Shown in pieces: positions 56,175-64,000 of a stretch of 64,000 bases of DNA; the first letter of the stretch is position 1, and each line of letters starts with the position of its first letter. Both the position numbers and the translations under genes were made by a program. The stretch comes from Escherichia coli (lineage in GTDB: Bacteria > Pseudomonadota > Gammaproteobacteria > Enterobacterales > Enterobacteriaceae): the NCBI RefSeq assembly GCF_003018255.1, contig NZ_CP027440.1; one strand, 5' to 3'. Below the pieces are notes generated by a model. It worked only from the letters and a program-made list of their open reading frames with translations, was not told where the DNA came from and did no database searches.

Positions 56175-56675
56175 ATGGCCGACAGTTTCCAGAATGAAGT
56201 TCCCGCCGCTCGTGTAAATATCAAGCTTGATCTGCATACAGGCAATGCTAAAAAGAAAGTTGAACTCCCCCTCAAGCTTCTTGCCGTAGGCGATTACAGT
56301 AACGGAAAAGAGCAACGTCCGCTGTCCGAACGGGACAAGGTTGATATCAATAAAAACAACTTCAACAGCGTCATGGCTGAGTTTTCGCCTGCGGTTAATT
56401 TAACAGTAGAAGATACGCTAAACGGAAACGGTAATGAACAAAATATCGCGCTTGAATTTAAAAGCCTGAAGGATTTTGAACCCGAACAGGTAGCAAAAAA
56501 TATTCCGCAACTTCGTGTATTACTCGCTATGCGCAATTTACTACGTGACCTGAAATCCAATCTGCTGGATAACGCAACGTTTCGCCGTGAACTGGAAAAT
56601 ATCCTGAAAGACCCGACGCTCAGTTCAGAACTGCGTGATGAACTGGCGAAAATTGCGCCGCAGGAGAACGTTTAA
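56175..56675 (+). CDS. tssB: Type VI secretion contractile sheath small subunit TssB (VipA)
   Basis: ORF 56154..56675 trimmed to MADSFQNEVPAARVNIKLDLHTGNAKKKVELPLKLLAVGDYS (166 aa), the characteristic TssB N-terminus; RBS aggaaaagga ahead. Confidence 0.9.
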   Translation: MADSFQNEVPAARVNIKLDLHTGNAKKKVELPLKLLAVGDYSNGKEQRPLSERDKVDINKNNFNSVMAEFSPAVNLTVEDTLNGNGNEQNIALEFKSLKDFEPEQVAKNIPQLRVLLAMRNLLRDLKSNLLDNATFRRELENILKDPTLSSELRDELAKIAPQENV

Positions 56676-56733
56676 CCCGAACGCGTATTCAGGTTAAACC
56701 GGAGAAGAAAGGATCCCTAAAAAGGAAATGCTG

Positions 56734-58272
56734 ATGTCTGTACAACAAGAATATGCCACCTCTGAAACTGCAACACTCACCACCACTGAGTCCGGCGGCG
56801 TTTATCAGTCCCTGTTTGATAAAATTAATTTAACCCCGGTCTCTTCCATTCAGGAAATCGATTTATGGCAAAACAGCGAAACGCTGGCCGATGCTTCACC
56901 CGATGAGCGCGTGACGGCGGCGATCCACGTTCTGCTTTCCTGTCTGGCGAAATCAGGCGAGGACGTGGTTAAACTCGACAAGAGCCTGCTGGATTTTCAT
57001 ATCGACGATTTGGATCAGAAAATCAGTAAACAGCTTGATGCAGTCATGCACCATCCGGAATTCCAGAAAGTCGAGTCGCTCTGGCGCGGCACATGGTTCG
57101 TCGTACAGCGCACCGATTTTCGCAAAAATGTCAAAATTGAACTGCTGGATATCAGTAAAGAACATCTGCGGCAGGACTTTGATGATTCTCCGGAAATCAT
57201 TCAAAGTGGTTTATATCGCCATACATACATTCAGGAATATGATACGCCGGGTGGCGAACCTGTAGCCTCATTAATATCCAGCTATGAATTCGATAACAGC
57301 CCGCAGGATATTGCCCTGCTGCGTAATATTTCCAGAGTCTCTGCTGCATCACATATGCCCTTTATCGGTTCCGTCGGACCGAAGTTCTTCCTTAAAAACT
57401 CGATGGAAGAAGTCGCCGCAATTAAAGATATCGGCAACTATTTTGACCGCGCGGAATATATCAAATGGAAGTCGTTCCGCGATACCGACGACAGCCGCTA
57501 CGTGGGATTAGTGATGCCGCGCGTGCTGGGCCGTCTGCCCTATGGCCCGGACACGGTGCCGGTACGCAGCTTTAACTATGTGGAAGAGGTCAAAGGCCCG
57601 GATCACGAAAAGTACCTCTGGACAAACGCCTCGTTTGCCTTTGCCGCCAATATGGTGAAGAGTTTTGTGAATAATGGCTGGTGTGTGCAGATCCGTGGTC
57701 CGCAGGCGGGTGGCGCAGTAGCCGATCTGCCGATCCATCTTTACGATCTCGGCACCGGCAATCAGGTCAAAATTCCGTCCGAAGTGATGATCCCGGAAAC
57801 CCGCGAGTTTGAGTTCGCCAACCTTGGCTTTATCCCGCTCTCTTATTATAAGAATCGCGATTACGCCTGCTTCTTCTCAGCGAACTCTGCCCAGAAACCG
57901 GCGCTGTATGATACCGCTGACGCCACCGCCAACAGCCGTATCAACGCCCGTTTGCCCTATATCTTCCTGCTGTCCCGCATTGCTCACTACCTGAAAATCA
58001 TTCAGCGCGAGAATATCGGCACCACCAAAGACAGACGCGTGCTGGAACTGGAGCTGAACACCTGGATCCGCACGCTGGTGACGGAAATGACCGATCCGGG
58101 CGATGAACTTCAGGCTTCGCATCCACTGCGCGACGGGAAAGTTATCGTCGAGGACATAGAGGACAATCCGGGCTTTTTCCGCGTCAGACTCTTTGCCGTG
58201 CCGCATTTCCAGATCGAAGGGATGGACGTCAACCTTTCTCTGGTTTCCCAGATGCCAAAAGCAAAAGCCTGA
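56734..58272 (+). CDS. tssC: Type VI secretion contractile sheath large subunit TssC (VipB)
   Basis: About 512 aa from MSVQQEYATSE; size and position after tssB; the ATG at 56728 is an alternative start. Confidence 0.9.
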   Translation: MSVQQEYATSETATLTTTESGGVYQSLFDKINLTPVSSIQEIDLWQNSETLADASPDERVTAAIHVLLSCLAKSGEDVVKLDKSLLDFHIDDLDQKISKQLDAVMHHPEFQKVESLWRGTWFVVQRTDFRKNVKIELLDISKEHLRQDFDDSPEIIQSGLYRHTYIQEYDTPGGEPVASLISSYEFDNSPQDIALLRNISRVSAASHMPFIGSVGPKFFLKNSMEEVAAIKDIGNYFDRAEYIKWKSFRDTDDSRYVGLVMPRVLGRLPYGPDTVPVRSFNYVEEVKGPDHEKYLWTNASFAFAANMVKSFVNNGWCVQIRGPQAGGAVADLPIHLYDLGTGNQVKIPSEVMIPETREFEFANLGFIPLSYYKNRDYACFFSANSAQKPALYDTADATANSRINARLPYIFLLSRIAHYLKIIQRENIGTTKDRRVLELELNTWIRTLVTEMTDPGDELQASHPLRDGKVIVEDIEDNPGFFRVRLFAVPHFQIEGMDVNLSLVSQMPKAKA

Positions 58273-58291
58273 TCGGGCGGTGGTGTGATGT

Positions 58292-62505: not shown

Positions 62506-62512
62506 TAACTGC

Positions 62513-62539
62513 GGCAGACAGGAAACTGTCTGCCTTTTT
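62513..62539 (+). terminator. Rho-independent terminator or attenuator downstream of hcp
   Basis: ggcagacaggaaactgtctgcc hairpin followed by ttttt. Confidence 0.7.
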
Positions 62540-62696
62540 GTTGTGTGCTTTGTCCAGTGCCGCAGGCACCGGTACTGAGCAAAGCATACCCACAATCTGG
62601 TGAAACCTGATGGGCCTGTGTGAGGTAACGGCTATGGGCGGTAGCGTGCCTGAACGCGGATCGCAGGAATACAGAACACGATAAGGAAACCCTTCT

Positions 62697-64000
62697 ATGA
62701 CAGGAAATCACCCCGCCGCGCTGCTGCGTCGCCTTAACCCATACTGTGCACGGGCGTTGGACGCTGCCGCCTCACTGTGTCAGACCCGCGCCCATGCGGA
62801 GATAACCATTGAACACTGGCTGCTGAAACTGCTGGAGCAGGGAGAAGGCGATATCACGGTGATTGCCCGTCGCTATGAATGGGATATCGACACGCTCTGG
62901 CAGTCTCTGCTGGCGCATCTGGACACCTTACCCCGCTCGGTCCGCGAACGTCCTCAACTTTCTGAACCGCTGGCAGCGCTTATCAGACAGGCGTGGCTGA
63001 TAGCGTCACTGGAAGGTGACGATCCACAAATCCGCAGCCAGCACCTGCTGATGGCGCTGACAGAAAAACCGATGCTGCCCGCCTGTAATGACCTGTGGGT
63101 ATTGCTGAGTCTGAGCCGCGTGCAGCTTGAGCGGCTGCATCCCCTGCTGGATGCGCAGTCGGATGAATGTCCGGCACGTCAGCCACAGGTCACCGAACCG
63201 CTGACATCCGCGCAACCAGAGTCGGCAACGACGGACGTACCGGCAAAAACGCTGACGGGGAAACAGGATGACGCCCTGCTGGCGGTGCTTAACCGCTTTA
63301 CCGAAGACGTGACGGAAAAAGCCCGTAGCGGGCGAATCGACCCAGTATTCGGGCGCGACACCGAAATTCGCCAGATGGTCGATATCCTCTCCCGTCGCCG
63401 CAAAAACAACCCGATTCTGGTGGGAGAACCGGGGGTGGGCAAAACCGCACTGGTGGAAGGGCTGGCGCTGCGTATCGCCGAAGGCAACGTGCCCGACAGC
63501 CTGAAAACGGTGCATATCCGCACGCTGGACCTCGGTCTGTTACAGGCTGGCGCGGGTGTTAAAGGTGAATTTGAGCAGCGACTGAAAAACGTGATTGATG
63601 CAGCACAGAAATCGCCGGAGCCGGTACTGCTGTTTATTGATGAAGCCCATACCATTATCGGCGCGGGTAACCAGGCTGGCGGCGCGGATGCGGCGAACCT
63701 GCTGAAACCGGCACTGGCAAGGGGCGAACTGCGCACCATCGCGGCGACCACGTGGAGCGAATACAAACAGTATTTTGAGCGCGACGCCGCGCTGGAGCGC
63801 CGCTTCCAGATGGTTAAGGTTGACGAGCCGGATGATGACACCGCCTGTCTGATGCTGCGGGGACTGAAGGCCCGTTATGCACAGCACCACGGCGTGCATA
63901 TGCTGGACAGCGCCATTCAGACCGCCGTGCGCCTGTCGCGCCGCTATCTGACCGGACGCCAGCTGCCGGACAAGGCGGTTGATTTGCTGGATACCGCCGG
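62697..64000 (+). CDS. clpV: Type VI secretion AAA+ ATPase ClpV (TssH), N-terminal part (continues beyond window end)
   Basis: Translation from the ATG at 62697: MTGNHPAALLRRLNPYCARALDAAASLC... with Walker A GEPGVGKTA and Walker B LLFIDEAH; no stop before position 64000; not in the ORF track because it is open-ended. Confidence 0.88.
   Translation, partial: MTGNHPAALLRRLNPYCARALDAAASLCQTRAHAEITIEHWLLKLLEQGEGDITVIARRYEWDIDTLWQSLLAHLDTLPRSVRERPQLSEPLAALIRQAWLIASLEGDDPQIRSQHLLMALTEKPMLPACNDLWVLLSLSRVQLERLHPLLDAQSDECPARQPQVTEPLTSAQPESATTDVPAKTLTGKQDDALLAVLNRFTEDVTEKARSGRIDPVFGRDTEIRQMVDILSRRRKNNPILVGEPGVGKTALVEGLALRIAEGNVPDSLKTVHIRTLDLGLLQAGAGVKGEFEQRLKNVIDAAQKSPEPVLLFIDEAHTIIGAGNQAGGADAANLLKPALARGELRTIAATTWSEYKQYFERDAALERRFQMVKVDEPDDDTACLMLRGLKARYAQHHGVHMLDSAIQTAVRLSRRYLTGRQLPDKAVDLLDTA

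What the first reader, a model, noticed from the sequence alone, without database searches (positions are those of the whole stretch)
56175..64000. Only part of the T6SS core gene set is present in the window; no integrase or transposase at the tRNA-proximal junction
Within the window I see sheath (tssBC), baseplate tssK, membrane tssL, the TagL-like protein, hcp and the clpV N-terminus. TssM, TssJ, TssA, TssE, TssF, TssG, VgrG and PAAR are not seen and must lie downstream if the system is functional. No integrase or IS element was recognised between the tRNA and tssB, which suggests an old, stabilised insertion.
Basis: inference. Interest (0 to 1): 0.45.

Follow-up and report, generated by a model that had tools for sequence, protein, structure and literature searches.

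The report
Known E. coli metV T6SS-1 island
The window ends inside the well-known type VI secretion island that many E. coli strains carry next to the metV tRNA gene. Near-identical genomes show that the rest of the system follows intact, with no integrase at either end but with a 41-bp repeat marking an old integration site.

Summary
Window 56175-64000 holds tssB, tssC, tssK, tssL, a TagL-like OmpA protein, hcp and the first 434 codons of clpV/tssH. The gene set is partial only because the window ends there.

Two complete E. coli genomes (JNE23-011, JNE112863) differ from the window by one base over their 11.2-kb and 9.3-kb overlaps. In both, the cluster continues with tssH, vgrG, tssM, tssA, PAAR, tssF, tssG, tssJ, tssE and a VasL-domain gene. 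A five-gene PTS sugar module follows, then amiC.

There is no integrase or transposase at either boundary. The metV-tssB gap is 610 bp of AT-rich DNA with no ORF over 52 aa.

The 27.1-kb T6SS module is bracketed by a perfect 41-bp direct repeat: the last 14 nt of metV plus 27 nt. Strain A20 shows the precise empty site.

The metV-tssB junction occurs in 1336 of 5426 complete E. coli genomes. This is the published PAI-metV / E. coli T6SS-1 island, which is syntenic with EAEC Sci-1 and already recorded as lacking an integrase.

"Old and stabilised" is only partly right. The T6SS genes differ by 4-7% between strains against 1-2% for the flanks, two right-junction types exist, and an identical island end occurs in another genus.

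Verdict: ordinary and already known.

The parts
55247..55543 (+). metZ-metW-metV, three identical initiator tRNA-Met(CAU) genes. metV (55467-55543) is the integration target.
   Evidence: ARAGORN, Rfam RF00005, K-12 annotation of the homologous genes.
55530..55570 (+). Left copy (attL-like) of the perfect 41-bp direct repeat GGCCCCCGCAACCAATTTATTAGAATGCTGACAAACCGCAA, made of the last 14 nt of metV plus 27 nt. The right copy lies 27,130 bp downstream, outside the window, at L001 29869-29909.
   Evidence: the repeat finder family D4. The same repeat is present in strains 83972 and NMEC O18. Strain A20, which lacks the T6SS, has a single copy.
55562..55597 (+). Terminator-like hairpin plus T-run closing the tRNA operon. 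It is island-derived sequence that replaces the K-12 terminator.
   Evidence: RNA fold -17.3 kcal/mol, z = -3.2. Comparison with K-12.
55571..56153 (.). AT-rich non-coding leader and promoter region of the T6SS-1 cluster (the metV-tssB region 55544-56175 is about 31% GC). It holds no integrase or IS remnant, no GATC site and no convincing Fur box.
   Evidence: It is 98.5% conserved in strains 83972 and O18 and 91% in UTAK-14. It shows no homology to the EAEC Sci-1-type upstream region.
56175..56675 (+). tssB, contractile sheath small subunit. The PGAP start is 56175; an upstream GTG at 56154 is also open.
   Evidence: TIGR03358, 163 bits. PGAP annotation.
56728..58272 (+). tssC, contractile sheath large subunit. 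The ORF starts at the first ATG; the PGAP start is 6 nt further in.
   Evidence: TIGR03355, 664 bits.
58292..59629 (+). tssK, baseplate subunit. It carries the only difference from the JNE genomes, base 59499 G versus A (S403N).
   Evidence: TIGR03353, 398 bits. Full-length match to solved TssK 5m30, 555 bits. Base and residue difference.
59626..60291 (+). tssL, short form, an inner-membrane component.
   Evidence: NF038239, 278 bits.
60304..61956 (+). TagL-like accessory protein. The N-terminal region has no family match, and the C-terminus is an OmpA-type peptidoglycan-binding domain that would anchor the membrane complex to the cell wall.
   Evidence: Pfam OmpA. PDB 5m38, 7rjj and 7bba, residues 425-547. 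Same position as the OmpA-family gene in the EAEC Sci-1-type cluster.
62014..62505 (+). hcp (tssD), the tube protein.
   Evidence: TIGR03344, 172.5 bits.
62697..64000 (+). clpV/tssH, the first 434 of 881 codons, cut off by the window end.
   Evidence: Open translation. The full gene in L001 scores 1107 bits against TIGR03345.

Best explanation
The window ends about 8.5 kb into the E. coli T6SS-1 island at metV (PAI-metV type). The island is about 32.7 kb and replaces the 69-bp metV-amiC spacer of K-12. It has two modules: a 27.1-kb T6SS-1 module (54% GC) and a 5.5-kb PTS sugar-utilisation module (40% GC).

The T6SS-1 module encodes a complete contractile injection machine. The roles below are assigned from established T6SS biology, not tested here.
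- Membrane complex: TssJ, TssL and TssM, tied to peptidoglycan by TagL.
- Baseplate: TssE, TssF, TssG and TssK, with the VgrG/PAAR spike.
- Assembly: TssA primes the Hcp tube and the TssBC sheath.
- Sheath control: a VasL-domain (TagA-like) protein.
- Recycling: ClpV.

The likely cargo in this allele is a PGRP/amidase-like protein after vgrG and a 468-aa PAAR-toxin fusion after tssA. Each is followed by small candidate immunity genes. The most probable function is contact-dependent killing of competing bacteria (inferred).

The T6SS module entered by site-specific recombination into the 3' end of metV. That event regenerated the tRNA and left a 41-bp direct repeat. The integrase is no longer present, having been lost or supplied in trans.

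The gene set in the window looks partial only because of where the window stops.
For: **In-window genes.** Confirmed by curated HMMs and by solved homologues.

**Downstream complement.**
- The window differs from JNE23-011 and JNE112863 by one base over their 11.2-kb and 9.3-kb overlaps. A 25-kb stretch of the window matches at 100.0%.
- In both genomes the cluster continues with every remaining core gene and no pseudogene flags.
- HMM scores exceed the cut-offs for TssH, VgrG, TssA, TssF, TssG, TssJ and TssE.
- TssM carries three IcmF Pfam domains.

**Boundaries.**
- Identity with K-12 stops 3 nt after metV and resumes at the amiC stop codon. The island is 32,692 bp.
- A perfect 41-bp direct repeat has a spacing of 27,130 bp.
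- The same repeat is present in strains 83972 and O18.
- A20 is a precise empty site that carries only the PTS module.
- UTAK-14 has the same island end joined to K-12-type flank, with a 17-bp repeat.

**Population.** The metV-tssB junction is in 1336 of 5426 genomes. tssC at 90% identity or more is in 1334.

**Family.** Gene order matches an EAEC Sci-1-type cluster that carries tle1/tli1.

**Literature.**
- PAI-CFT073-metV carries a T6SS (PMC2660368, PMC2907695, PMC3032704).
- It is 32 kb (PMC3573123).
- It has 0 integrase and 0 transposase genes (PMC6315130).
- A roughly 30-kb cluster at about 3.35 Mb in another E. coli strain is called T6SS-1 (PMC9729726).
Against: - The window's own genome is not in the collection, since there is one mismatch, so the downstream content is inferred from near-identical genomes.
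- No expression or secretion data were examined.
- TssM falls below the NCBIfam TssM cut-off (259.5 against 388 bits). PGAP gives the gene the same non-specific name in the Sci-1-type cluster.
- Effector assignments are weak. The Amidase_2 hit has E = 0.0026, below the gathering score, and neither cargo protein has a PDB relative.
- Many other strains carry IS-disrupted or internally deleted copies, so decay of this island is common in the species.
- Site-specific integration is inferred from the repeat structure. No integrase was identified.
Confidence: 0.9

Rival explanations
1. The cluster is a degenerate remnant. The window shows only part of the core set because the rest has been lost, so the system does not work.
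For: - Decay does occur in the species.
- Strain EC596 keeps only 188 bp of tssC next to the VasL-domain gene.
- Several genomes have IS3 or IS1 insertions inside T6SS-1.
- E. coli W's metV T6SS is reported to be inactivated by IS621 (PMC3032704).
Against: - Two genomes that differ from the window by one base carry every core gene intact.
- All in-window ORFs are full length with strong HMM scores.
Confidence: 0.04
2. The T6SS-1 module is not an old fixed insertion. It is an integrase-less element that still moves, or recently moved, between strains and genera, using a tRNA-fMet-specific integrase supplied in trans or homologous recombination of its flanks.
For: - Perfect 41-bp repeats and a precise empty site.
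- The same island end joined to two different recipient flanks.
- T6SS genes are more divergent than the flanks, 93-96% against 98-99.8%.
- A 286-bp island end plus tRNA fragment, 100% identical to the UTAK-14 allele, lies in Entomohabitans teleogrylli beside a flank absent from 5,426 E. coli genomes.
Against: - No integrase was found anywhere in the island.
- Junction-bearing genomes (1336) and tssC carriers at 90% identity or more (1334) are almost equal in number, so essentially all carriers appear to have the island at metV.
- That pattern is also what vertical descent plus flank-mediated recombination would give.
- Only 1.3 kb of the Entomohabitans contig could be read, so a T6SS there is unverified.
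- No excision product or circular form was observed.
Confidence: 0.25
3. The locus is ancestral to E. coli, and K-12-like strains have lost it by deletion. On this view it is not an insertion at all.
For: - The site is constant, and about a quarter of complete genomes carry the island.
- Deletion remnants exist.
Against: - GC is 54% for the T6SS module, with stretches up to 62%, and 40% for the PTS module, against about 50-53% for the flanks.
- A duplicated tRNA 3' fragment sits at the far end of the T6SS module.
- Two clean kinds of empty site exist, K-12 and A20, with no scar.
- The same island end occurs in another genus.
Confidence: 0.05

Closest known systems
PAI-CFT073-metV, the E. coli metV genomic island (called "ETSS2" in E. 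coli W)
   Same: - Same chromosomal site, downstream of metV and before amiC.
- Same size: 32.7 kb here against 32 kb published (PMC3573123).
- It carries a T6SS (PMC2660368, PMC2907695, PMC3032704).
- No integrase or transposase (PMC6315130).
- Strains 83972 and NMEC O18 show the same gene order, the same PTS module and the same 41-bp repeat.
   Different: - This is an allelic variant. The central T6SS genes are 93-96% identical to those strains.
- The cargo differs: a PGRP/amidase-like protein after vgrG and a 468-aa PAAR protein.
- Only 8 of 5426 genomes have tssC at 99% identity or more to the window.
- CFT073 itself was not fetched.
EAEC Sci-1 type VI secretion system, the prototype of E. 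coli T6SS-1 in the Journet & Cascales naming cited in PMC9729726
   Same: - Same gene order: tssB-tssC-tssK-tssL-OmpA/TagL-hcp-tssH-...-vgrG-...-tssM-tssA-tssF.
- TssK matches the solved TssK structure 5m30 over its full length. The link of that entry to EAEC is from my own knowledge.
- The TagL-like peptidoglycan-binding domain matches 5m38 and 7bba.
   Different: - Only 64-80% nucleotide identity in the core genes.
- The chromosomal context differs. The Sci-1-type cluster sits in a mosaic island with microcin genes, transposase fragments and other mobile-element-related genes.
- The cargo differs, being Tle1/Tli1 there.
- The upstream regions are unrelated. The Sci-1-type region has three GATC sites, and this one has none and no convincing Fur box.
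- The Fur/Dam switch described for Sci-1 (recalled from memory, not read here) therefore probably does not apply.
E. coli T6SS-2 at aspV (OI#7 of O157:H7, AGI-1 of APEC O1)
   Same: - It is also a tRNA-adjacent T6SS island with no integrase gene between the tRNA and the T6SS genes.
- It is present in the near-identical genome JNE23-011 as a second system, with hcp-vgrG-Rhs.
   Different: - It belongs to a different phylogenetic group (PMC2907695).
- The gene order differs and includes tagH, vasI and an icmH/DotU-type tssL.
- Its tssC is too divergent to be found by blastn with this tssC.
Salmonella SPI-20 and SPI-21
   Same: They are reported as the closest Salmonella relatives of the PAI-metV T6SS, with the same overall architecture (PMC2907695).
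   Different: They occur in another genus and carry extra ORFs. They were not examined here.

Membership tests
Type VI secretion system (canonical T6SSi, 13 core components) | TssB and TssC sheath, Hcp tube, TssK, TssL (the in-window components) | tested here: met
   All pass the NCBIfam curated cut-offs.
Type VI secretion system (canonical T6SSi, 13 core components) | TssA, TssE, TssF, TssG, TssH, TssI/VgrG and TssJ present and intact | tested here: met
   Tested in genomes that differ from the window by one base. Every model scores above its cut-off and there are no pseudogene flags. For the window's own genome this is an inference.
Type VI secretion system (canonical T6SSi, 13 core components) | TssM (IcmF-like membrane subunit) | tested here: met
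   Pfam IcmF-related, IcmF_helical and IcmF_C all score above gathering. The NCBIfam TssM equivalog scores below its cut-off, 259.5 against 388 bits.
Type VI secretion system (canonical T6SSi, 13 core components) | Hcp/VgrG secretion and sheath contraction | not testable with these tools
   This needs a secretion or competition assay.
E. coli T6SS-1 (EAEC Sci-1-like) | Gene order tssB-C-K-L-tagL-hcp-clpV-vgrG ... tssM-tssA ... tssF-G-J-E | tested here: met
E. coli T6SS-1 (EAEC Sci-1-like) | Short-form TssL plus a separate TagL protein with an OmpA-type peptidoglycan-binding domain | tested here: met
   NF038239, TssL short form. The OmpA domain matches 5m38 and 7bba.
E. coli T6SS-1 (EAEC Sci-1-like) | Fur/Dam-controlled promoter, as in EAEC sci-1 | tested here: not met
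   No GATC site, no Fur box with fewer than 6 mismatches, and no homology to the Sci-1-type upstream region. This is a feature of the EAEC locus rather than of the family.
PAI-metV genomic island | Inserted between metV and amiC | tested here: met
PAI-metV genomic island | About 32 kb, carrying a T6SS, with no integrase or transposase | tested here: met
   32,692 bp. No such genes are annotated or detected. Published values are in PMC3573123 and PMC6315130.
tRNA-integrated genomic island (integrase-mediated) | Direct repeat that includes the 3' end of the tRNA gene at both island ends | tested here: met
   Perfect 41-bp repeat. It is conserved in two other strains and is 17 bp in a third. A precise empty site exists.
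tRNA-integrated genomic island (integrase-mediated) | Tyrosine-recombinase integrase gene next to the tRNA | tested here: not met
   None lies between metV and tssB or at the far end.

The most novel reading that the evidence does not exclude
The 27-kb T6SS-1 module is an integrase-less but still mobilisable element. A tRNA-fMet-specific integrase encoded elsewhere inserts and excises it at the 41-bp (or 17-bp) att repeat. That activity has recently moved identical island DNA between E. coli and another enterobacterial genus, Entomohabitans.
Probability: 0.15. Interest if true: 0.4.

Novelty: already known. Interest (0 to 1): 0.12.

Why it matters
The result confirms that this strain most likely has a complete antibacterial T6SS-1, plus a second T6SS at aspV. 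That matters for predicting how well it competes in the gut. It does not change what is known, because the metV T6SS island and its lack of an integrase are in the literature. The modest additions are the exact anatomy of the island (two modules, a 41-bp att-like repeat, defined empty sites) and signs that the module has moved more than once.

Tried and rejected
- **Integrase or IS remnant in the metV-tssB gap.** ORFs of 20 aa or more (the longest is 52 aa), Rfam and promoter/terminator scans showed nothing but tRNAs.
- **EAEC-type regulation.** A scan for Fur boxes and GATC sites and a comparison with the Sci-1-type upstream region found no support.
- **Solved relatives of the two cargo proteins.** None was found. 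Pfam gave only a sub-threshold Amidase_2 hit and a PAAR motif.
- **Lloyd et al. 2007 (PMC1855899).** I tried to read it for published repeats at PAI-metV, but the paper is not held. Other literature searches found no description of the 41-bp repeat. Absence from this library is not proof of novelty.
- **Extra vgrG or tssC paralogues.** "Places in record" counts showed none of the T6SS-1 type for vgrG in JNE23-011. The second T6SS was found only by walking to aspV.
- **Strain ST648 as an empty site.** Rejected, because that record has an N and lacks the tRNA genes at the junction, which looks like an assembly artefact.
- **attR 30-mer scan of one genome per species.** It gave a single hit of 1.3 kb and could not be extended.
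Full report
**Observation**

The window is E. coli chromosome.
- Positions 49.6-55.1 kb hold the core genes gcvA, csdA, csdE, tcdA and mltA.
- Three identical initiator tRNA-Met genes, metZ, metW and metV, lie at 55247-55543.
- A 610-bp AT-rich gap follows. Then come tssB (56175-56675), tssC (56728-58272), tssK (58292-59629), short-form tssL (59626-60291), a 550-aa TagL-like OmpA-domain protein (60304-61956) and hcp (62014-62505).
- The last gene is the first 434 codons of clpV/tssH, from 62697 to the window end.
- Every assignment passes the NCBIfam curated cut-off.
- TssK aligns over its full length with the solved TssK 5m30.
- The C-terminal domain of the TagL-like protein matches the solved peptidoglycan-binding domains 5m38, 7rjj and 7bba.
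- The metV-tssB region (measured over 55544-56175) is 31% GC. The gap has no ORF above 52 aa and no Rfam match.

**What lies downstream**

- Window 55200-64000 and 39001-64000 match two complete genomes at 100.0%: E. coli JNE23-011 (NZ_AP045067.1) and JNE112863 (NZ_AP045072.1).
- Base-by-base comparison finds one difference in 11,209 bp against JNE23-011, and the same one in 9,268 bp against JNE112863. It is 59499 G versus A, which gives TssK S403N.
- In both genomes the cluster continues in this order: full-length tssH, vgrG, a PGRP/amidase-like gene, two hypothetical genes, tssM, tssA, a 468-aa PAAR protein, an 86-aa ORF, tssF, tssG, tssJ, tssE and a VasL-domain (TagA-like) gene. None is flagged as a pseudogene.
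- Independent HMM scans confirm TssH, VgrG, TssA, TssF, TssG, TssJ and TssE above their cut-offs.
- TssM is confirmed through three IcmF Pfam domains.

All 13 core components plus PAAR and TagL are therefore present. The set looks partial only because of where the window ends.

**Island boundaries**

- After the VasL-domain gene comes a five-gene minus-strand module, then amiC, argA and recD. The module encodes a BglG/LicT-type antiterminator, a MalX-like PTS IIBC, a PatB/MalY C-S lyase, a KpsF/GutQ-type isomerase and a 2-hydroxyacid dehydrogenase.
- In K-12, metV and amiC are 69 bp apart once shared bases are excluded. Identity stops 3 nt after metV and resumes at the amiC stop codon.
- The island is 32,692 bp. 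There is no integrase or transposase anywhere in it.
- It is built from two modules of different composition: the T6SS part at 54% GC and the PTS part at 40%.

**A fossil attachment site**

- The T6SS module is bracketed by a perfect 41-bp direct repeat, GGCCCCCGCAACCAATTTATTAGAATGCTGACAAACCGCAA. The two copies are 27,130 bp apart.
- The left copy (window 55530-55570) is the last 14 nt of metV plus 27 nt. The right copy sits between the VasL-domain gene and the PTS module.
- Both copies lead into a terminator-like hairpin.
- The same repeat is present in strains 83972 and NMEC O18.
- Strain A20 has the PTS module only. Its metV is followed by a single copy of the 41-mer and exactly the right-hand flank, so it is a precise empty site.
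- Strain M8 has a variant of that empty site.
- In strain UTAK-14 the same island end (...CTTGACTGT|GGCCCCCGCAACCAATT) abuts K-12-type spacer sequence instead, giving a 17-bp repeat. That version has no PTS module and carries a ROS/MucR-family gene inside the island.

This is the classic signature of integrase-mediated insertion into a tRNA 3' end, here with the integrase missing.

**Population and history**

- The metV-tssB junction is present in 1336 of 5426 complete E. coli genomes. tssC at 90% identity or more is in 1334. Because the two counts nearly coincide, essentially all T6SS-1 copies of this type appear to sit at metV.
- The PTS module is in 1686 genomes.
- Between strains the flanks are 98-99.8% identical and the island edges 96-100%. 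The central T6SS genes are only 93-96% identical, and the cargo genes are strain-specific.
- Decayed versions exist, with IS insertions or internal deletions.
- I scanned one genome per species for the attR 30-mer. The single hit was Entomohabitans teleogrylli.
  - A 286-bp stretch there is 100% identical to the UTAK-14 island end, including the tRNA fragment.
  - It is followed by a flank with no match in any complete E. coli genome.
  - Only 1.3 kb of that contig could be read.

"Stabilised" is fair, since no mobility genes remain. A single quiet ancient insertion is not the best reading.

**Comparison with what is known**

This is the published PAI-metV / E. coli T6SS-1 island.
- PAI-CFT073-metV carries a T6SS (PMC2660368, PMC2907695).
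- E. coli W has a homologous cluster downstream of metV (PMC3032704).
- The island is 32 kb (PMC3573123).
- It is tabulated with 0 integrase and 0 transposase genes (PMC6315130).
- A roughly 30-kb cluster at about 3.35 Mb in another E. coli strain is called T6SS-1 after Journet and Cascales (PMC9729726).
- An EAEC Sci-1-type cluster with tle1/tli1 has the same gene order at 64-80% nucleotide identity, but sits in a different mosaic island.
- Its upstream region is unrelated and holds three GATC sites. The metV version has none and no good Fur box.

**Other loci in the genome**

- JNE23-011 has no second T6SS-1-type vgrG detectable by blastn.
- It does carry a T6SS-2-type cluster at aspV, with hcp-vgrG-Rhs and ISAs1 copies. 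The VasL-domain gene there is frameshifted.

**Mechanism**

*Shown:* a complete core gene set in near-identical genomes.

*Inferred from established T6SS biology:*
- TssJ, TssL and TssM, anchored to the cell wall by TagL, form the membrane complex.
- TssE, TssF, TssG and TssK, with VgrG and PAAR, form the baseplate and spike.
- TssA primes the Hcp tube and the TssBC sheath.
- Sheath contraction fires the spike and its cargo into neighbouring cells.
- ClpV recycles the contracted sheath.

*Weakly supported:* the cargo assignments.

**Verdict**

The feature is ordinary and already known. The att-like repeat and the cross-genus fragment are small additions that deserve a note, not a headline.

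Noticed in passing
L010 (Entomohabitans teleogrylli NZ_LLXO01000025.1) 45-330: A 286-bp stretch is 100% identical to the right end of the E. coli UTAK-14 T6SS-1 island, including the 14-nt tRNA-fMet 3' fragment. It is followed by a GC-rich flank with no match in 5,426 E. coli genomes. This suggests recent inter-genus transfer of the island or of its end.
   Followed up: partly
L001 29910-35447 (downstream of the window; NZ_AP045067.1 3558909-3564446): A five-gene PTS sugar module at 40% GC lies between the T6SS module and amiC. It encodes a LicT-like antiterminator, a MalX-like IIBC, a PatB/MalY lyase, a KpsF/GutQ-like isomerase and a 2-hydroxyacid dehydrogenase. It occurs without the T6SS in strains such as M8 and A20, and is present in 1686 of 5426 genomes.
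   Followed up: partly
L009 9390-9938 (E. coli UTAK-14): A ROS/MucR-family regulator gene lies inside the T6SS-1 island, between the VasL-domain gene and the right repeat. It belongs to the variant that lacks the PTS module. It is very common in public assemblies and is absent from the window's island type.
   Followed up: partly
L005 11281-47517 (NZ_AP045067.1 about 869-906 kb): The near-identical genome carries a second T6SS, of T6SS-2 type, at aspV. It comes with hcp-vgrG-Rhs and several ISAs1 copies, and its VasL-domain gene is frameshifted.
   Followed up: partly
L001 15077-16188 and 22500-24323: The cargo is strain-specific. A 208-aa PGRP/Amidase_2-like protein and a 147-aa ORF follow vgrG, and a 468-aa PAAR protein with an unassigned C-terminal region plus an 86-aa ORF follow tssA. 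None has a PDB sequence relative, and the genes are absent from the other island alleles compared.
   Followed up: partly
window 59499: This is the single base difference (G versus A, TssK S403N) between the window and both JNE genomes over 11.2 kb. The source genome is therefore a very close relative and not one of the records in the collection.
   Followed up: yes
window 58500-61500: GC reaches 60-62% across tssK-tssL-tagL, against about 50% for the rest of the window. The metV-tssB leader is about 31% GC. The contrast within a few kb is strong and makes H-NS-type silencing of the leader plausible (inference only).
   Followed up: no
L002 384-527 vs L001 1095-1114: K-12 has about 140 bp more than this strain in the tcdA-mltA intergenic region. 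This is probably a small repetitive element and was not examined.
   Followed up: no
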